DNA of 60,706 bases from a virus (taxonomy: Duplodnaviria > Caudoviricetes): the IMG/VR virus record IMGVR_UViG_3300031451_000004, positions 1 through 60,706 of that record; one strand, given 5' to 3'. The position numbers and the translations under genes were made by a program. Every line of letters begins with the position of its first letter. The stretch's first letter is position 1. Of this stretch, positions 26,475 through 60,706 are shown piece after piece. The notes under the pieces were generated by a model. It made no database searches. It saw nothing but the letters and a program-made list of their open reading frames with translations, and was not told the origin of the DNA.

Positions 26475-28691
26475 CTAATCCGTGTCTTTATCAGGCATGG
26501 CATAGCGGATCGTGGCTCGTCCAGACCCTTCTGGCTGGCATTGGATGGCTAGCAGCTTCCCTGAGCCGACAAGCGTAGTCAGCAGGTCGGCGCGCTCCCG
26601 TGCAGAAATCTTGAGACCCTTTCGGGCGATCTCATAATCGCTCAGAGGCTTGCCTTCGCGCCGGACGATATCGAGGCACTTGTTCCAATGCCGTCCGTAG
26701 TCATTATCCGCAATGTTGCGTTCCGCCTCGCGTAGAAGGGTGTCGCCGCAGTGCTTGGCGAAGAACCGGCCCCACTCGACATCTTGAGCCTCGATCACCG
26801 GCTGGGCTGGATTGCGGCTAATAGCTCGGATCAGAGCGAGCTTGATGGCGCTTTCCGCCCAACGAGCCAAGATAGCTCGCTCTTCGCTTTTCTGGCTTCT
26901 GCGTAGCGCCGCCGTTTGATCGATCATCAACTGCATGATGGCCAGGTCAGCGGCAGTGGTATTTGGAACAAGGTATGGTTGCGGTTCTACGGTTGCCTGC
27001 ATGACGGGGGCTAGGTTGCCCGCTTCCGGATCGTCCGCGCCTTTGGCAATGGCTTGCAGGCCTTCTATGATGGCGTCTGGAATTGGCATCTGTGCTGGGA
27101 TTTGGTTGTCAGGGTAGCTATCAGGTGAAACGCAGATCAGGAACCGAGCCAGGAACCCATCATTTAGCGACGCGCCAGCTAATGCTGACCAGAACTGACC
27201 TGGCGTTGTGGTGCCATACAGGCACACGTGCGGCTGTATGATGTCTTGCCGTGGCTTGCCTTCTTTGGTCTGATCGGCATATTCCGTTCCGATCATCGTG
27301 GCGTTGGCGCTGCTAAAGATCGTCTTTAGCCGTTCGGCTATTTGCCGTTTGTGCTGACTGGCGTTCTTGCCCGCTATCCCCTCGACCCAATTTCCATATT
27401 CATCTATTTGAAACAACCGACATGGAAAAAGATGCAGGGCGGTCAGGATTGCCGCGCCGCTCGCGATATCTTCACCGCCTAGATAGTCGCCAAGGCCAGC
27501 CGCCATGAATGCCGCTTTGATTCGACTCCGCGCATGGTCCTTGCCGCCGCCGCTGTCCGCGATGCCAACGACATAAAGATTGCTTCGCAAATTGGTCGAG
27601 GTGCGATATCGCCGCCCGGCAACTGCACCGACTGCTGCAAGGCTCGCCGCCAAGGCTAGGAGCGGTTGTGGACGAATTGAGGTTGCGTCGATCCAGGCCA
27701 TAAGTCTGCCTAGCAGGCCGTCGAGGTCTAAAAGATCATTGGGTAAGAGTGATGGAATGACAGGCTTCGTCGTAGCTTTGCTTGAGACTGATGGCGCGAA
27801 CTCAAACGCGCTCGACTCTGCTAACGCTGTGAGTTGCGCCGCATCCCCGCTCATGTTGAGCCAGTCAACCACATCGCCCTTGAGCGGCAATTCTGGCAGC
27901 TCAAGAATGCGCACCCGTCTTGCAACGCCCTGGAGGCTCTTGGCCACATCCATGGCGTGGTCCTGCCCTGGCAACACTGGACTGCCATCAGGGTGCCATA
28001 GAAGGCTGCCATCGGCACGGGTCTTTTGCGGATCGTTATCCGGCAGTATGACGATATCCGCACCCGCTAGCGATGGTGCGTATTCCGGTTTCCAGGCGCC
28101 AGCCCCGCGCGGGCTGCAGGTTGCCGTCAATCCTAACAAGGCAAGTCGATCGGCGGACTTCTCGCCCTCGACCACATAGACCGTCCGCTCATTTGCGACT
28201 GCCGCTAGGACTTCCGGCAATCGATAGAGCACCATCTGAATGTCAGATGTTTTCCATATCCATCCGCCACGTCCGTCTGGACGCCGCTGCATGAAATGTT
28301 TGGGTTCATATCGTACAACCTGAAAAACAAGCTCGCCGTTCGCGTCGAAGTAGTCATACGTAGCCACCTCTCGGCGCGGCTGCGTTTGTGATGGCGGCTC
28401 TGGTTTATCGAGGAAGTCACGCGCTTCAAGCCAGGCCATTGCGTCGGCAACCTCAAGTCCTAGCTGGCTGTGCAGGAAATCGAGAACTCCGCCGCCGCGT
28501 TCAATTTCAAAATCGAAGTATGTTCCTTTGTCGAGGTTCACGGACAGGCTTCCGCGGGTCCTGAACCGCAATTCGTGCCGGGTTTCTTTTGTCGGTTTGC
28601 CCAACACCTCGCGAGCAACGGGTCCCATGACTTTTGTAAATACGTTAGCATTGCCACTGCTGTTCGCAGTGAACATATTGATGACAGCCAT
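26475..28691 (-). CDS. TOPRIM primase fused to a DUF3987-like helicase
   Basis: VVEGEKSAD and ILPDND TOPRIM motifs; ADSGGGKD Walker A; QIDEYG; GFLARF. Confidence 0.88.
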   Translation of the reverse strand: MAVINMFTANSSGNANVFTKVMGPVAREVLGKPTKETRHELRFRTRGSLSVNLDKGTYFDFEIERGGGVLDFLHSQLGLEVADAMAWLEARDFLDKPEPPSQTQPRREVATYDYFDANGELVFQVVRYEPKHFMQRRPDGRGGWIWKTSDIQMVLYRLPEVLAAVANERTVYVVEGEKSADRLALLGLTATCSPRGAGAWKPEYAPSLAGADIVILPDNDPQKTRADGSLLWHPDGSPVLPGQDHAMDVAKSLQGVARRVRILELPELPLKGDVVDWLNMSGDAAQLTALAESSAFEFAPSVSSKATTKPVIPSLLPNDLLDLDGLLGRLMAWIDATSIRPQPLLALAASLAAVGAVAGRRYRTSTNLRSNLYVVGIADSGGGKDHARSRIKAAFMAAGLGDYLGGEDIASGAAILTALHLFPCRLFQIDEYGNWVEGIAGKNASQHKRQIAERLKTIFSSANATMIGTEYADQTKEGKPRQDIIQPHVCLYGTTTPGQFWSALAGASLNDGFLARFLICVSPDSYPDNQIPAQMPIPDAIIEGLQAIAKGADDPEAGNLAPVMQATVEPQPYLVPNTTAADLAIMQLMIDQTAALRRSQKSEERAILARWAESAIKLALIRAISRNPAQPVIEAQDVEWGRFFAKHCGDTLLREAERNIADNDYGRHWNKCLDIVRREGKPLSDYEIARKGLKISARERADLLTTLVGSGKLLAIQCQPEGSGRATIRYAMPDKDTD

Positions 28692-28802
28692 ATCAACCTG
28701 ATTCCTTTGGTCGGCAGGTTAGAAGGTTAGACGCCGCGCGATGGGGGAAACACCGCGCGGCGTTGGCACCCTTACGAATTTATTGCGCCGGCGCAAGCGG
28801 TA

Positions 28803-29435
28803 TCAGGAGCGCTTGCTTTTGTGCCATTGCACGGCGTTTGCGGCTTGGTTCCAGATGTGTTCGGCTTGTTCGCGTTCTAAAGAACGCGGATGCCCGCTTC
28901 TTTCTAAACCAGACGAAGTCAATCTTCCATCATAGCTGATCAAATCGTGGCAAAAATCGATCTGTTCTAAATATCCATTAGATGATTGATAGAATAGGGT
29001 TGCTAAACCTGGAGCCCACACATAATAATTTTCTACTTTCATTCGTTCGCCAAGCCATCCTAACGCTGCAGAGCCAATAAGGCATTTTTGGTTTAATGCT
29101 AACGATGATCCAAGCAGCAATAAGTCTTTATCCCAACCAGCCGTTCGTGCCGCCCGTTCCATCTTGTTGCAAACATTTTGATCACGTTGAGTGATTGGTT
29201 TGACTTCAACTAGAACATCGCACTTGCCACCGTTAGTTTTAAGCAAAAAGTCAGGCGACCACTCACCTAAGTCGAACGGCTCATACTCATATGCCCAGCC
29301 AACGGTATCGAAAAACGACGCCCATTTAGCTTCAAGGCGGCTGCGGTATTGCCTGCCTTTGTAAAGCGTCGGAATGGCCTGGATTTTATACATTGCGCGC
29401 GCGTCCTTGGTCAGAGCGGGCTTTCGCCCGCCCAT
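28803..29435 (-). CDS. PD-(D/E)xK nuclease-like protein
   Basis: YRSRLEAKWA, YEYEP, PDF...VEVKP. Confidence 0.75.
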   Translation of the reverse strand: MGGRKPALTKDARAMYKIQAIPTLYKGRQYRSRLEAKWASFFDTVGWAYEYEPFDLGEWSPDFLLKTNGGKCDVLVEVKPITQRDQNVCNKMERAARTAGWDKDLLLLGSSLALNQKCLIGSAALGWLGERMKVENYYVWAPGLATLFYQSSNGYLEQIDFCHDLISYDGRLTSSGLERSGHPRSLEREQAEHIWNQAANAVQWHKSKRS

Positions 29436-36739: not shown

Positions 36740-36912
36740 TTTTGATTGGCATGTAGCGTGTCCTCGACTGCTGTATTGAGCCGGGCTGCGATGCGCAGTA
36801 TTCCCTGCTTAAGCTTGCCGTCATCGAGTTCGTCTGCTTTTTGTTCTGCAATTACCGCGAGCAACAAGGCATCATTCATATGCATATCGATTAGCATTTT
36901 TCCCCCTTGCAT
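36730..36912 (-). CDS. Hypothetical protein
   Basis: First gene of the leftward early operon. Confidence 0.5.
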   Translation of the reverse strand: MQGGKMLIDMHMNDALLLAVIAEQKADELDDGKLKQGILRIAARLNTAVEDTLHANQKCF

Positions 36913-36924
36913 TAGCTGTGAACA

Positions 36925-36959
36925 GATGCAATGTGCATCGGATTGATGGGTAAATCAAT
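36925..36959. promoter_or_regulatory. Operator-like inverted repeats in the divergent switch region
   Basis: GATGCA-ATG-TGCATC and ATTGAT-N6-ATCAAT. Confidence 0.45.
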
Positions 36960-36976
36960 AGGAAAGAATGAAATAA

Positions 36977-37171
36977 ATGGGCATAAAGTCAGAGGTCGTT
37001 TCTGTCCACATGGACGCGCAACTGAAGGAAGCCATTTCTACTTTGGCCAAGTTCGATGGGCGTTCTGTGTCGCAATACATCGAGCGTGCACTAGTCGAGC
37101 ACGCTAGCCGGGCTGATCGTCGCGCGGCTCTGAATTTAATGCGGCGCCAGGGCGCTGTTCTGGCAGATTAA
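36977..37171 (+). CDS. Ribbon-helix-helix transcriptional regulator
   Basis: VVSVHMDAQLKEAI...DGRSVSQYIERAL. Confidence 0.8.
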   Translation: MGIKSEVVSVHMDAQLKEAISTLAKFDGRSVSQYIERALVEHASRADRRAALNLMRRQGAVLAD

Positions 37172-37796
37172 ACTGTTTGAGATCAAACACCCCAGTTTGT
37201 GCACCCCAATTGTCCCAACCAGGCCGATTAGTTCGCGAAAATAATTCGAGATACGGACCGTCGACAAGAGCTTCAATATAACTGTGCATTTCATCTGGCT
37301 TTCGGCTGTGTTCTCGGCGCGGGGCTATTACCAGCTTACGAACCGCCTTACTCTTTCGAGCCGGTTTACCGCGCGTTGCCAACACGCATTGTTCCACGTT
37401 GGCTCGCGTCCAGTATCCCATTCCAGTAAAAAAGTCATTTGATGATATGAAGTGTTTTGGCGCATTCTTGTTTGTCTTGGCCCAATAAAAGCCGATTGTT
37501 TTAAAATCAAATCCCCAAGCTTTAATCATATCGAATGCTGCCGGCAACAGTGGATCGGTTGCCCACAACAAAAGAACGCAGTCTTTTGCAGCTAATTCAG
37601 AAACTGGCAGCGCTTTAATACTATCTATATTCATGCAATTATAATGCGCTTCTGCGCTTCGGCCCAACCCTTTTGTGCTAAAAGTTTTGAATGCCCATGG
37701 TGGATCTGCATAAATAACGCCGTATTTTTTAGTTCCGATAAAATCCCCAAATACTTTAGTAGCCGCCTCGGCTACTGAACCTATTATGGCCGACAT
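37104..37796 (-). CDS. MT-A70 family adenine methyltransferase
   Basis: IYADPPW, GMGYWTRANVE, HSRKP, YLELFSR. Confidence 0.93.
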   Translation of the reverse strand: MSAIIGSVAEAATKVFGDFIGTKKYGVIYADPPWAFKTFSTKGLGRSAEAHYNCMNIDSIKALPVSELAAKDCVLLLWATDPLLPAAFDMIKAWGFDFKTIGFYWAKTNKNAPKHFISSNDFFTGMGYWTRANVEQCVLATRGKPARKSKAVRKLVIAPRREHSRKPDEMHSYIEALVDGPYLELFSRTNRPGWDNWGAQTGVFDLKQFNLPEQRPGAALNSEPRDDQPG

Positions 37797-57837: not shown

Positions 57838-58086
57838 ATGGCAGACATTCGTGATCAAAAAATCGCGGCCTTGGAAAGGGTAATTGTGACTTTCAGCACT
57901 ACGGAGCAAAGTGTTCGCAATGCCGACTTGGCAGCTAAAACCTTAGCTGACTTGCTAGATCCTACAATGAACGAAGTAGAGCAAGATGCAGTATGGCTTT
58001 TGCTGCGATACGCAAAGCGTAAAAAGGCAGAGGCTACGCAAAAACTCGCTGCTGCTTCTGCGAATTTGCCGGAAACAGATCAGTAA
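57838..58086 (+). CDS. Hypothetical protein
   Basis: Helical 82-aa ORF. Confidence 0.55.
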   Translation: MADIRDQKIAALERVIVTFSTTEQSVRNADLAAKTLADLLDPTMNEVEQDAVWLLLRYAKRKKAEATQKLAAASANLPETDQ

Positions 58087-58265
58087 TCCCCGATTGGAAA
58101 AGGCAAGAATATGCACACTGACATCTATTCCCCGTATCGCTTTGTAAGCCGCCAAACTTCACGTAATCGTGAAAAGACAGTTTAAAACAATAGTGTATAG
58201 ATGTGCGACCGAAAACGGCGCTGGAACGCCGCTTCCGGTCTAAACCTAACAATTGGAGCAACCCA

Positions 58266-58871
58266 ATGGCTAAATCTGCGAGTAGTTCTAGCACAATTCG
58301 GCTTCCCCGGTTTGATCTTCGTGATATGTCGATCAAACTTATCGGTGATTCCCAACTCGTTTGCCATGCCTGGTCCCAGAAGGCCAAAATGGAAATGCTG
58401 GGCAAGCAAATGAAGCGAGCCAAGGAAGCCAAGGCCGCCAAGGACCCACATCAAGACTTCATGGATAGCCTCTATCCCATGCCGGACGGTAACGGCTACG
58501 GCTTCCCTGCCATTGCTTTTAAAGCAGCAGCAGTTGATGCCTGCAGCTCCGTCGAAGGAATAACCAAGGTTGAAGCGCGCATGGCGTTTCATATTGACCG
58601 GGACCTGCTACTGATCGAAGCCAGCCCGCCTACAATGCGAGAAGATATGGTTCGTGTCGGTATGGGAACGGCAGATATCCGCTATCGCGGATCATTCGAC
58701 CCTTGGTCGGTTACGGTGCCATTGCGTTATAACGCAAACGCTTTGTCGGCTGAACAAATCGTGCATCTTTTTAATACTGCGGGTTTTGGTATCGGCATTG
58801 GCGAGCACCGTCCACAACGGGACGGCTCATGGGGTCGGTTCCATGTCGCATCTGTGCAGGAGGCTGGCTAA
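58266..58871 (+). CDS. Solitary Cas7/RAMP-like protein (candidate Vipr-type RNA-guided effector)
   Basis: IKLIGDSQLVCH first strand, FPAIAFKAA helix, IRYRGSF-x-PW, Gly-rich loop AGFGIGIGEHRP-x3-GSWGRF; GGAG RBS at 58255. Confidence 0.8.
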   Translation: MAKSASSSSTIRLPRFDLRDMSIKLIGDSQLVCHAWSQKAKMEMLGKQMKRAKEAKAAKDPHQDFMDSLYPMPDGNGYGFPAIAFKAAAVDACSSVEGITKVEARMAFHIDRDLLLIEASPPTMREDMVRVGMGTADIRYRGSFDPWSVTVPLRYNANALSAEQIVHLFNTAGFGIGIGEHRPQRDGSWGRFHVASVQEAG

Positions 58872-59434
58872 TGATTAGCAAAACCGTTTTTGAAAACATG
58901 AATTCATCAACCTATGCTTGGAAGGCAGGGAGCCGCTCGCCCGTGCCAGCGCAAGTCGCAGGAGAGGAGTTGACTGATATTCAGGAAGCAAATGGAGACT
59001 TTTTTACTCCAGCTTCTGTCGTGTTTGCGGCACGTCCCAAGAATGCGCCCTTGCATCCTGCTTTTGAATGGAATGACAAGAAAGCTGCGGCAGCACATCG
59101 AGAAGATCAAGCTCGCTATCTAATTCGCAACATCGTTATGGTGAACCCAGAAAAGCCGAAAAACACGGCTGTTCGGGCTTTTGTGTCAATCTCTCACACC
59201 AGCGCAGAAGATGATATCTGCGCCAAACGCTATACATCCACGATACACGCGATGACAGACAAAGACTTACGCGAACAGGTCCTGGCCCAGGCGCAGTCAG
59301 ACTGGCGCGCGTTTGCGCGGAAATATGCGCAGTTCCTCGATCTAGCCGAAATGGCCGCGGCTTTCGATACGGCTAATATTCGTGCGCAAAAAGCACAAAG
59401 CGTTTTGCAGGATCAGCAAAACGCGGCTGCGTAA
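58871..59434 (+). CDS. Accessory protein of the RAMP locus
   Basis: TAATG coupling; TPASVVFAAR...PLHPAFEWND...QARYLIR. Confidence 0.75.
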   Translation: MISKTVFENMNSSTYAWKAGSRSPVPAQVAGEELTDIQEANGDFFTPASVVFAARPKNAPLHPAFEWNDKKAAAAHREDQARYLIRNIVMVNPEKPKNTAVRAFVSISHTSAEDDICAKRYTSTIHAMTDKDLREQVLAQAQSDWRAFARKYAQFLDLAEMAAAFDTANIRAQKAQSVLQDQQNAAA

Positions 59435-59438
59435 TCAA

Positions 59439-60265
59439 GGCAGACAGGGCGAGGCAGGCAAGGCCTGGCGCGGCGTGGCCTGGCGTGGCAGGGCAGGGCA
59501 CGGCGAGGCATGGCAGGGCAGGCAAGGCAAGGCACGGCTCGGCGTGGCTCGGCAGGGCGGGGTAAGGCAGGCAAGGCAGGGCGTGGCTAGCTATGGCGAG
59601 GCAGGCATGGCACGGCCCGGCGAGACTGGGCACGGCGCAGCGCGGCACGGCACGGCAGGCGTGGTCGGGCGCGGTGCGGCTTGGCTAGGCAAGCCTGGGC
59701 AAGGCATGGCAGGCAAGGCAGGGCACGGCGCGGTCGGGCTTGGCATGGCTCGGCAGGGCAAGACAGGGCAGGCGAGGCAAGGCGCGGCCAGGCTCGGCAT
59801 GGCCGGGCGCGGCTCGGCGAGGCAGGCATGGCATGGCAGGGCAAGACAGGGCAGGCGAGGCAAGGCGCGGCCAGGCTCGGCATGGCCGGGCGCGGCTCGG
59901 CGAGGCAGGCATGGCATGGCAGGCAAGGCCCGGCGCGGCGCGGCGCGGCAAGGCTCGGCATGGCGCGGCATGGCAGGCAAGGCAGGGCGTGGCTAGCTAT
60001 GGCGAGGCAGGCAGAGCAAGGCGCGGCAAGGCGCGGCGCGGCGGGGCAGGCCATGGCAGGCTCGGCATGGCATGGCGGGGCTCGGCGCGGCATGTCTCGG
60101 CAGGGCAGGCGGGGCGCGGCGTGGCCTGGCAAGGCATGGCGTGGCGAGGCATGGCAGGCATGGCACGGCCCGGCGCGGCACGGCTTGGCGTGGCAAGTCT
60201 GGGCATGTCAGGGCAGGGCAGGCTCGGCAAGGCGCGGCATGGCGGGGCGCGGCTCGGCATGTCAA
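59439..60265 (+). repeat. Non-coding GGY-NN pentamer array (candidate guide-RNA array)
   Basis: Manual parse gives 151 pentamers (133 GGC, 4 GGT, 14 variant triplets) plus 18 GGCA tetramers, totalling 827 bp. All 16 NN dinucleotides occur. Confidence 0.9.
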
Positions 60266-60272
60266 CGCAAGG

Positions 60273-60304
60273 AACCAGCAAGAGGCAAAACCTCTTGCTG
60301 GTTT
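60273..60304 (+). terminator. Hairpin closing the array
   Basis: AACCAGCAAGAGG-CAAAA-CCTCTTGCTGGTT, a perfect 13-bp stem. Confidence 0.8.
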
Positions 60305-60339
60305 ACCGCACCGTCACATGCAGAGCTGGATACTCAGAA

Positions 60340-60550
60340 GCAGGAAAGGTGGTGGGAGGCTCCCAAGTGTGAGGGTCACGAGGGTTACTGTCGGGTTACT
60401 GAGGCGAGCGTGTTGGCTGGTTCCGGGTAAGGACGCTCCAGCATTCCACGACGCATTCAGTCCGGTCATACTGTCGTGGCGAACCGGAGTAGGGGATGCG
60501 GCTGCGCCTCACTGCTGAAGGCCGCCATCGCCTCCCACCACCTTTTCTGC
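60340..60550 (+). ncRNA. Candidate structured RNA of unknown class
   Basis: A 21-bp terminal stem (60340-60360 with 60530-60550, one G-U) encloses several internal helices. Confidence 0.4.
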
Positions 60551-60579
60551 AAGCAGATCACTAGAAACCGGAGTTCGTG

Positions 60580-60706
60580 ATGCGATTGACCCCCGAACAG
60601 CAGACCGAGATCGACGCCCAGCGAGAGGCCGCAGCCTCCACCCGGCGCGCCACTGTGCCCGCACTGGAAGAAATGCTGTATCGCGCGCTGCCCGTGCTCG
60701 ACCACG
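60580..60706 (+). CDS. thyX: ThyX N-terminal part (3'-truncated at the window edge)
   Basis: GGAG RBS; MRLTPEQQTEID...TRRATVPALEEMLY...VLDH is the alphaproteobacterial ThyX N-terminus. Confidence 0.85.
   Translation, partial: MRLTPEQQTEIDAQREAAASTRRATVPALEEMLYRALPVLDH

What the first reader, a model, noticed from the sequence alone, without database searches (positions are those of the whole stretch)
59439..60265. GGCA tetramers punctuate the array into discrete guide-sized segments
The 5-nt register is broken only by 4-nt GGCA units (18 of them). Segment sizes are 2,12,9,6,10,10,11,10,5,10,2,10,6,9,9,9,12,9 pentamers. Most are 9-12 units, i.e. 18-24 informative nt, similar to a spacer. Example NN strings: 59457 AA-CT-GC-GT-CT-GT-AG-AG-AC-GA-AT-AG; 59658 GT-CG-GC-GC-TT-TA-AA-TG-AA-AT; 59771 GA-AA-GC-CA-TC-AT-CG-GC-TC-GA; 60157 AT-AC-CC-GC-AC-TT-GT-AA-TG-AT-AG-AG. 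Inference: GGCA marks processing sites or filament boundaries of a multi-guide transcript. The dinucleotide TG occurs only after non-GGC triplets (GACTG, GCCTG, GTCTG).
Basis: partly seen in the sequence, partly recalled or inferred. Interest (0 to 1): 0.82.

Follow-up and report, generated by a model that had tools for sequence, protein, structure and literature searches.

The report
Phage VIPR guide-RNA array, GGCA-delimited
The GGCNN array is the multi-guide RNA array of a phage VIPR system, a recently described RNA-guided gene-silencing system related to CRISPR, and the GGCA four-letter units mark where one guide ends and the next begins.

Summary
Window 59439-60265 is about 150 GGCNN pentamers broken only by GGCA tetramers (17 by my parser, 18 by raw spacing).

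It is a VIPR locus (Viral Interference Programmable Repeat; bioRxiv 2026). The gene at 58266-58871 is a Vipr RAMP protein: its profile matches PDB 36pp 'SUSP1 Vipr protein' at E 5e-19, and its fold resembles Csm3/Cas7. A second, accessory gene follows, then the array on the same strand, then a terminator-like hairpin.

Unlike the characterised SUSP1 type, the guides have no tails. They abut at GGCA|GGC, which fits the paper's 'staggered arrays' with 1-nt overlap (legend only seen).

Across 116 related loci, GGCA is the dominant 4-nt unit and segments peak at 9-11 units. Junction-delimited segments find near-perfect targets only under the published 1-nt-skip rule: 12 one-mismatch hits against 0 for shuffled guides. 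Complementarity stops at the junctions.

This is a new member of a known kind.

The parts
58266..58871 (+). vipr gene (Vipr, a minimal RAMP protein, 201 aa; an upstream GTG at 58203 is an alternative start)
   Evidence: A profile of 64 homologues matches PDB 36pp_D 'SUSP1 Vipr protein' at E 5.2e-19, and the single sequence matches at E 0.0016 over the thumb and G-loop. The AlphaFold model has pLDDT 93. Top Foldseek matches are Csm3/Cas7-type RAMPs, E 3.7e-6. It falls in phrog_4652, function unknown. Pfam gives nothing at E<=1.
58871..59434 (+). vipr-accessory gene (Vap-like, 187 aa); its ATG overlaps the vipr stop codon (TAATG)
   Evidence: It falls in phrog_15946, function unknown, and has no Pfam match. 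It lies next to vipr in 75 of 80 viral loci by HMM. The model has pLDDT 90. The N-terminal domain gives only middling winged-helix-like matches (Z 6-7), and the C-terminus is a helical hairpin. Its HMM does not match the gene beside SUSP1 vipr at E<=10.
59400..59424 (+). RNA hairpin at the 3' end of the accessory gene, just before the array
   Evidence: Nine-pair stem; the folded stretch 59392-59440 has -16.2 kcal/mol, z -3.5 against shuffles. The scan also flags it on the minus strand. Role unknown.
59439..60265 (+). vrRNA array: about 150 GGC-NN pentamers in 18 segments separated by GGCA. Thirteen segments of 9-12 units are guide-sized: 59457-59516, 59521-59565, 59604-59653, 59658-59707, 59712-59766, 59771-59820, 59854-59903 (a duplicate of the one before), 59922-59971, 60010-60054, 60059-60103, 60108-60152, 60157-60216, 60221-60265.
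   Evidence: No Rfam family matches at E<=1. The tract is open in several frames on both strands, as expected from composition alone.
59517..59520 (+). First clear GGCA junction. The others lie at 59453, 59566, 59600, 59654, 59708, 59767, 59821, 59850, 59904, 59918, 59972, 60006, 60055, 60104, 60153 and 60217, each 4 nt long.
   Evidence: Parser output and arithmetic from the segment starts. In relatives the junction is followed by GGC more strictly than body units are: C at the third position in 82% against 56-63%.
59712..59964 (+). Tandem duplication inside the array (period 83, 3.1 copies) that repeats one 10-unit guide and a short segment
   Evidence: Tandem Repeats Finder, 88% matches. 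The NN strings at 59771 and 59854 are identical.
60272..60304 (+). Terminator-like hairpin closing the unit (14-pair stem, then UUU)
   Evidence: The folded stretch 60255-60312 has -26.6 kcal/mol, z -5.2, and 0 of 200 shuffles fold as well. The consensus scan missed it because the T-run is short.

Best explanation
This is a VIPR locus of an uncultured phage: vipr, an accessory gene, and then a tail-less 'staggered' vrRNA array, all on one strand and closed by a hairpin. By the published mechanism, Vipr protomers bind one GGY triplet each and form a helical filament on the RNA. The two variable bases of each pentamer then pair with double-stranded DNA, skipping every third target base, and this silences genes of rival phages, satellites or prophages. 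In this array the guides are not separated by 40-nt pseudoknot tails or ribozymes. Each guide of about 9-12 pentamers abuts the next at GGCA|GGC, a one-base slip of the 5-nt register. A filament built on 5-nt steps cannot run through that slip in register, so it ends one guide and starts the next. What is shown here: the homology and fold of Vipr, the architecture of the locus, conservation of the junction and of segment length across relatives, the 1-nt-skip matches of junction-delimited segments in relatives, and the independence of neighbouring segments. What is inferred: transcription of this array, cleavage or filament phasing at GGCA, silencing activity, and the targets of this phage.
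For: Protein side. The Vipr profile matches solved SUSP1 Vipr at E 5.2e-19. Alignment to SUSP1 pairs the thumb arginine and the G-loop stretch that the cryo-EM paper describes as contacting G1, G2 and Y3; I matched these by motif, not by numbering (paper section 5). The fold is RAMP-like. The same profile finds SUSP1's own Vipr at E 1.4e-22.

Association with the array. Seventy-six of 80 viral loci found through the protein carry a GGY-NN array, and 94 of 96 arrays are on the gene's strand. Three of the 4 loci without an array end within 500 nt downstream of the gene. All 36 of 36 loci from bacterial genome contigs carry one. Conversely, 82 of 120 loci found blind by a GGCNN motif encode a Vipr by HMM. 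Mycobacterium phage Donkeykong has the same module with the array upstream of the genes.

Junction. GGCA makes up 408 of 600 four-nt units in the viral loci and 111 of the roughly 165 in genome loci, although A is the fourth base in only 31% of pentamers. Internal segment lengths peak at 9, 10 and 11 units (75, 79 and 73 of 508).

Guides. I scanned 772 distinct junction-delimited segments of 9 or more units against 2.2 Mb of held DNA. At 1-nt skip there were 12 one-mismatch and 37 two-mismatch hits, against 0 and 9 for shuffled guides. At skips of 0, 2 and 3 the real and shuffled counts were alike.

Boundary. For 45 distinct guide-target pairs, the neighbouring segment across the junction matched the adjoining target at 17-35% at every offset from 0 to 8, which is chance level. 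The first unit after a junction mismatched at only 3 of 90 positions. Two adjacent segments of one array (L016) hit two different loci at 20/22 and 22/24.

Variability. A relative in another study has flanks about 96% identical, but only about 283 nt separate them where the window has about 753 nt of array.

Literature. [quoted passage not shown] S18 legend).
Against: No RNA data exist for this locus, so neither expression nor RNA ends at GGCA are shown. The paper says that only the ribozyme and single-vrRNA architectures were confirmed by small-RNA sequencing, which implies the staggered one was not. I could not see Fig. S18 or the supplementary tables, so equating GGCA|GGC with the authors' '1-nt overlap' is my own reading.

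The window's own 13 long guides have no match above shuffled guides in about 3.2 Mb, including the window itself.

Five of the 18 segments are too short to be guides (1, 2, 5, 6 and 6 units), and relatives also show a minor peak at 1-3 units that the model does not explain.

This Vipr has His where SUSP1 and most relatives have the G-loop Trp. About 9 of the 49 family-level hits are expected by chance, and many hits come from one guide against homologous vipr genes, so they are not independent. The accessory protein is not the SUSP1 vap1 family, and the VIPR type (I-VII) could not be assigned.
Confidence: 0.82

Rival explanations
1. It is a VIPR array, but the GGCA units are only tolerated one-base slips (replication slippage scars). 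Guides would then be defined by something else, such as transcript ends or host RNase sites, and could span the junctions.
For: No RNA ends are available. Short segments of 1-6 units exist. Thirty-two percent of 4-nt units in relatives are not GGCA.
Against: All 17 four-nt units here are GGCA (P about 2e-6). Segment length is quantised at 9-11 units across 116 loci. Target matches do not continue across junctions at any offset from 0 to 8. Adjacent segments hit unrelated targets.
Confidence: 0.1
2. The tract encodes a low-complexity Gly/Ala/Arg-rich protein, as the equivalent stretch is annotated in Mycobacterium phage Donkeykong (gp48, hypothetical protein).
For: Open frames of 204, 249 and 210 aa on the plus strand. 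A CDS is annotated over the Donkeykong array.
Against: The period is 5 nt with 4-nt interruptions, so no frame is kept. Frames are also open on the minus strand, as composition alone predicts. The conserved letters are GGY at a 5-nt period, not codon positions. Arrays of relatives differ freely in NN and in length. The published systems show these tracts to be RNAs bound by Vipr.
Confidence: 0.01
3. It is a DNA-level element (a protein-binding iteron or centromere-like array, or an R-loop-forming G-rich tract used in replication) rather than an RNA guide array.
For: The array is G-rich on the transcribed strand with a regular 5-bp period. In one clade a ParB-N/methylase gene lies beside the VIPR locus.
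Against: Co-orientation with vipr is strict, 94 of 96 arrays. The neighbouring protein is an RNA-binding RAMP. The NN content finds gapped matches in other phages only at 1-nt skip. None of these is expected of a DNA-binding array.
Confidence: 0.02

Closest known systems
VIPR 'staggered' vrRNA arrays (10.64898/2026.04.26.720920, main text and the Fig. S18 legend)
   Same: Guides are contiguous and tail-less. [quoted passage not shown] Reading GGCA|GGC as GGCAG overlapping GGCNN by one G gives exactly that.
   Different: I cannot compare in detail because the figure and supplementary data were not available to me. The paper does not state in the text I read that the junction is GGCA, how long the segments are, or that this architecture was confirmed by RNA sequencing.
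Type II VIPR of Escherichia phage SUSP1 and the Pseudomonas fulva prophage (experimentally characterised; PDB 36pp)
   Same: Homologous Vipr RAMP, GGY/NN pentamer guides of 9-16 units, a two-gene operon flanked by guide arrays, and phage-borne.
   Different: In SUSP1 I found four separate tracts (11, 17, 16 and 6 units) with no 4-nt units and with spacers between them. The papers describe a roughly 40-nt pseudoknot tail on each vrRNA. Here 18 segments abut directly in one 827-nt tract. The accessory gene is a different family. The Vipr proteins are distant: E 0.0016 as single sequences.
Class 1 CRISPR-Cas effector backbones (Cas7/Csm3/Cmr4 on crRNA)
   Same: A RAMP protomer filament on a guide RNA, with a thumb that takes bases out of pairing at a fixed period. 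The locus is a multi-guide array. The closest solved folds are Csm3.
   Different: There are no repeat-spacer units, no Cas6 or other cas genes, and no Cas1/Cas2. The period is 5 nt with only 2 of 5 bases used, against 6 nt with 5 of 6 used. The target is double-stranded DNA bound as a gapped triplex, according to the papers. It is not a CRISPR-Cas member.
TRAP (trp RNA-binding attenuation protein) binding sites; this comparison is recalled, not tested here
   Same: A protein oligomer reads a conserved triplet repeated about every 5 nt, with spacer bases free.
   Different: The protein fold is unrelated (a ring, not a RAMP filament). The spacers carry no guide information. TRAP works through cis-regulation, not DNA targeting.

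Membership tests
VIPR system | Vipr protein: a minimal RAMP (RRM core, glycine-rich loop, thumb) homologous to characterised Vipr | tested here: met
   Profile against PDB 36pp_D, E 5.2e-19. The same profile finds SUSP1 Vipr in its genome at E 1.4e-22. Model pLDDT 93, with Csm3/Cas7 as top folds.
VIPR system | RNA-contact residues described for SUSP1 Vipr (thumb Arg; G-loop Asp-Trp-Arg) | tested here: inconclusive
   In the alignment, the thumb Arg and the G-loop Arg-Pro are kept. Asp is replaced by Glu and Trp by His in this protein. Most relatives have Glu-Trp-Arg. I matched residues by motif, not by the paper's numbering.
VIPR system | Adjacent array of GGY/NN pentamers on the strand of vipr | tested here: met
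   for the window. In relatives, 76 of 80 and 36 of 36 loci carry an array, and 94 of 96 arrays are co-oriented.
VIPR system | GGY conserved while NN is hypervariable between relatives | tested here: met
   880 distinct NN strings of 6 or more units, only 49 shared between loci. In a near relative the array is replaced between flanks about 96% identical.
VIPR system | Guides match targets under the 1-nt-skip rule, with skipped bases at the wobble position | tested here: met
   Family level: an excess only at skip 1. In 36 listed hits the skipped base fell on codon position 3 in 24, on position 1 of an antisense shadow frame in 12, and on position 2 in 0. The window's own guides gave no hit above shuffles.
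VIPR system | Accessory vap gene next to vipr | tested here: met
   A conserved second gene is found in 75 of 80 viral loci by HMM. It is not the SUSP1 neighbour family. Which of vap1-6 it is cannot be told without the supplements.
VIPR system | vrRNAs expressed and co-purifying with Vipr | not testable with these tools
   No RNA run is listed for this DNA.
VIPR staggered array | Consecutive vrRNAs share a 1-nt overlap, with no tail or ribozyme between them | tested here: met
   There are 17-18 GGCA|GGC junctions and no spacer longer than a unit. Rfam finds no ribozyme or other family. The correspondence to Fig. S18 rests on its legend only.
CRISPR-Cas | Repeat-spacer array with cas genes (Cas1/Cas2 adaptation module, Cas6 or equivalent) | tested here: not met
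   The only repeat is the 5-nt unit. The two neighbouring genes are Vipr and an accessory protein with no Pfam match. It works like a Cas7 backbone but is not a member.

The most novel reading that the evidence does not exclude
The one-base register slip GGCA|GGC may be the entire punctuation system. It would stop one Vipr filament and nucleate the next, so that a single tail-less, ribozyme-less transcript carries a dozen or more independent guide filaments. These might be released by trimming of the unprotected junction, or might stay joined as 'beads on a string' for multivalent silencing. That would be the simplest known way of making a multi-guide array, with phasing by protein geometry rather than by a dedicated nuclease, and a plausible precursor of repeat-spacer organisation. 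A hint of polarity is that the first unit after a junction is the best matched to targets (3 of 90 mismatches against 13 of 90 for the last unit).
Probability: 0.3. Interest if true: 0.6.

Novelty: new member of a known kind. Interest (0 to 1): 0.4.

Why it matters
VIPR was described only in 2026 and is proposed as an ancestor of CRISPR effectors. Only the tailed (type II), ribozyme and single-guide architectures have RNA-level support in the text I read.

This locus is a large, clean example of the tail-less staggered architecture: 18 segments, 13 of guide length. The comparative data here give sequence-level rules for it: a GGCA|GGC junction, 9-11 units per guide, and no read-through. They also replicate the 1-nt-skip rule independently on a different clade.

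The same module sits in cultured actinobacteriophages. Thirty-four phage records have a Vipr homologue, 27 from Mycobacterium and 5 from Gordonia, all annotated 'hypothetical', and in Donkeykong the array itself is annotated as a gene. This offers a tractable laboratory system and flags a recurrent mis-annotation.

The Vipr profile finds 6,237 cluster representatives at E<=1e-10, far more than the 667 representative systems classified in the paper.

Tried and rejected
- Rfam: no family at E<=1 in 58000-60706.
- Pfam: nothing for either protein at E<=1.
- A remembered lead, the 'tetrapeptide repeat' gene gp54 of mycobacteriophage Tweety, is a different 12-bp coding repeat (passages of PMC2884959). 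A search for 'pentanucleotide repeat' + phage + GGC gave nothing relevant.
- RNA evidence: no RNA holder is listed for this DNA. The three runs laid are DNA contigs and cannot show RNA ends.
- Targets of the window's own 13 long guides: best matches equal those of shuffled guides. The DNA scanned was 1.73 Mb of VIPR-bearing viral loci plus the window itself (best self match 15/18, within the shuffle range), 0.47 Mb of bacterial contigs, and 1.04 Mb around terminase relatives (one 16/18 against a shuffle maximum of 15, marginal).
- Relatives of the window's primase: none found in the viral collection.
- A collection-wide gapped search of the guides was not run, because it would need typed patterns joined from window letters. 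It is listed under next steps.
- One guide of a gut-bacterium prophage (L224) matches window 38750 at 18/20. I take this as chance, since 9 such hits occur with shuffled guides.
- Whether the A of GGCA pairs with the target: base counts beside 46 targets show no A or AG enrichment, but the hits are not independent, so this is left open.
- The fold of the accessory protein gives only middling winged-helix-like matches.
- The VIPR type (I-VII) could not be assigned without the supplements.
I recomputed the segmentation from the stored window file instead.

Full report
**What is in the sequence.** Window 59439-60265 is an unbroken run of GGC-NN pentamers.
- GGC-to-GGC spacings in 59400-60300 are 5 nt (116 times), 4 nt (18), 10 nt (15, a degenerate unit in between), and 6, 9, 14 and 28 nt once each.
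- Every 4-nt token is GGCA.
- A parser that may freely choose 4-, 5- or 6-nt units gives 150 pentamers and 17 GGCA.
- With A as the fourth base in 70 of 150 pentamers, 17 of 17 four-nt units ending in A has P about 2.4e-6.
- Thirteen of 18 segments have 9-12 units, against a mean of 2.7 and a maximum of 11 in 100,000 random placements.
- An 83-nt tandem duplication (59712-59964) explains one duplicated guide. A 6-unit segment also occurs twice.
- The remark about TG is true here (3 of 3) but does not hold in relatives.

**Context.** The window is a whole viral contig of 60,706 bases, linear, estimated 74% complete. It carries terminase, portal, primase and helicase genes.
- Directly upstream of the array, on the same strand, lie two genes: 58266-58871 (phrog_4652) and 58871-59434 (phrog_15946). 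Both are 'unknown function' and neither has a Pfam match. The start of the second overlaps the stop of the first.
- A hairpin sits at the end of the second gene (59400-59424).
- A strong terminator-like hairpin closes the array at 60272-60304 (the folded stretch has -26.6 kcal/mol, z -5.2).
- Rfam finds nothing.
- The tract is open in several frames on both strands, which composition alone explains.

**Identification.** A blastn search of cultured phages matched the array to Mycobacterium phage Donkeykong. There a 350-nt GGCNN array, annotated as CDS gp48, lies directly upstream of homologues of both genes. The three parts therefore travel together in very distant phages.
- A profile of 64 homologues of the first protein matches PDB 36pp 'SUSP1 Vipr protein' at E 5.2e-19.
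- Its AlphaFold model (pLDDT 93) resembles Csm3/Cas7 RAMPs.
- The literature search then found three 2026 preprints on VIPR systems.

What I read of the papers:
- 10.64898/2026.04.26.720920: the Results, the type-classification method, and legends found by term.
- 10.64898/2026.04.26.720927: the abstract, section 5 and passages found by term.
- 10.64898/2026.10.15.759431: the listed abstract and passages found by term.

According to these papers:
- Vipr protomers bind the GGY of each pentamer and form a helical filament.
- The NN bases pair with double-stranded DNA while skipping every third target base.
- Natural targets are rival phages, satellites, prophages and other VIPR loci.
- A vap accessory gene accompanies vipr.

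**How this locus differs from the characterised type.** In the SUSP1 genome my profile finds Vipr at 28477-29079 on the minus strand. My parser finds four separate tracts of 11, 17, 16 and 6 units there, with no 4-nt unit and with spacers between them. This fits the published tailed vrRNAs.
- The window instead has 18 segments abutting directly at GGCA|GGC.
- Read as GGCAG overlapping GGCNN by one G, this is the 'staggered' architecture.
- That equation rests on the Fig. S18 legend only. The figure and supplements were not available to me.
- The main text says only the ribozyme and single-guide architectures were confirmed by RNA sequencing.
- The accessory protein here is not the family next to SUSP1 vipr. 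Its model shows a weakly winged-helix-like N-terminal domain and a helical hairpin.
- The VIPR type could not be assigned.

**Is the junction a family feature?**
- Of 80 viral loci found through the protein, 76 carry an array. Ninety-four of 96 arrays are on the gene's strand. Three of the 4 loci without an array end within 500 nt downstream of the gene.
- All 36 loci from bacterial genome contigs carry one. These come from many phyla, so no host can be named.
- Of 120 loci found blind with a GGCNN motif, 82 encode a Vipr by HMM, and 38 do so by single-sequence tblastn.
- GGCA accounts for 408 of 600 four-nt units in the viral loci and is the dominant one in the genome loci (111). A is the fourth base in only 31% of pentamers.
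- Internal segment lengths peak at 9, 10 and 11 units (75, 79 and 73 of 508), with a minor, unexplained peak at 1-3 units.
- Even in low-GC arrays whose body units decay to GGT, GTC or GTT, the unit after the junction is GGC in 82% of cases, against 56-63% in the body.

**Are the segments guides, and do guides end at the junction?** I took all 772 distinct complex segments of 9 or more units from the held arrays. I scanned them, inside scripts, against 2.2 Mb of held DNA with the arrays masked.
- With one skipped base there were 12 hits with one mismatch and 37 with two. Shuffled guides gave 0 and 9.
- With 0, 2 or 3 skipped bases, real and shuffled counts were alike. This replicates the published rule on another clade.
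- Targets include the conserved thumb motif of other phages' vipr genes: one guide hit more than ten loci.
- Targets also include a ParB-N/DNA-methylase gene beside the VIPR locus of close relatives.
- In 36 listed hits the skipped base fell on codon position 3 in 24, on position 1 of an antisense shadow frame in 12, and never on position 2.
- For 45 distinct guide-target pairs, the neighbouring segment across the junction matched the adjoining target at 17-35% at every offset from 0 to 8, which is chance level. The first unit after the junction mismatched at 3 of 90 positions and the last unit at 13 of 90.
- Two adjacent segments of one array hit different loci at 20/22 and 22/24.
- Caveats: about 9 hits are expected by chance, and hits on homologous genes are not independent.

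**This phage's own guides.** None of the 13 long guides matched anything better than shuffled guides did. The DNA scanned was 1.73 Mb including the window itself, then 0.47 Mb, then 1.04 Mb. There is therefore no self-targeting, and its targets remain unknown. A collection-wide search was not run. No RNA run holds this DNA. Contigs of a related phage from another study keep the flanks at about 96% identity, but only about 283 nt separate them where the window has about 753 nt of array. This fits rapid guide turnover.

**Verdict.** This is a VIPR locus with a tail-less, GGCA-punctuated multi-guide array. The kind is already in print, as 2026 preprints, so this is a new member of a known kind. 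Three questions remain open and testable: whether RNA is cut or merely phased at GGCA, what the short segments are, and what this phage targets. The Vipr profile finds 9,594 cluster representatives at E<=0.001 and 6,237 at E<=1e-10, so the family is much larger than the 667 systems classified so far.

Noticed in passing
L002:4001-4350 (Mycobacterium phage Donkeykong, record 36885-37234): The vrRNA-like array (62 pentamers, 6 GGCA; internal segments of 2, 10, 11, 11 and 11 units) is annotated as a protein gene, gp48. Thirty-four cultured-phage records (27 Mycobacterium, 5 Gordonia, 1 cyanophage, 1 Pseudomonas) have a Vipr homologue annotated only as 'hypothetical protein'. The VIPR paper's main text does not contain the word stem 'mycobacter'.
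   Followed up: partly
L225 first array segment, against L224, L229, L237, L238, L035, L078, L079 and others: One 10-unit guide of a Lachnospiraceae-MAG prophage matches, at 18-19 of 20 positions, the conserved thumb-motif codons of the vipr gene in more than ten other loci. This looks like VIPR aimed at rival VIPR systems.
   Followed up: partly
L016, L018 and L034 arrays, against L014:5767-5890 and L038:5697-5735: Guides from several related phages converge on a ParB-N/N6_N4 DNA-methylase gene that lies just downstream of the VIPR locus in their close relatives, with matches of 22/24 and 24/26.
   Followed up: partly
window 59570-59599 and 59976-60005: An identical 6-unit segment occurs twice in otherwise different surroundings. 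It contains two degenerate units and a short palindrome. It is too short to be a specific guide, and its role is unknown.
   Followed up: no
window 59456-60209, compared with a contig of run X3: A relative from another study shares the vipr and accessory genes (47 differences in 1,256 nt) and the downstream flank. It has a different, much shorter array between them.
   Followed up: partly
L083-L202 (loci found by motif): Thirty-eight of 120 loci with GGCNN runs show no Vipr in the DNA held. Several carry only one short tract of 9-15 units. They could be solo vrRNAs of the kind described in 10.64898/2026.10.15.759431, or truncated loci, or chance or simple repeats. A few are plain tandem repeats with a single NN.
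   Followed up: no
window 38750: A guide from a gut-bacterium prophage (L224) matches here at 18 of 20 positions. This is most likely chance, given 9 such hits with shuffled guides.
   Followed up: no
related arrays (L003-L082): Besides the main 9-11-unit mode, segments of 1-3 units are common (85 of 508 internal segments). Some are conserved among relatives, for example a 3-unit segment shared by L014, L017, L022, L023 and L032. They may be parser artefacts in degenerate stretches, or a second kind of punctuation.
   Followed up: no
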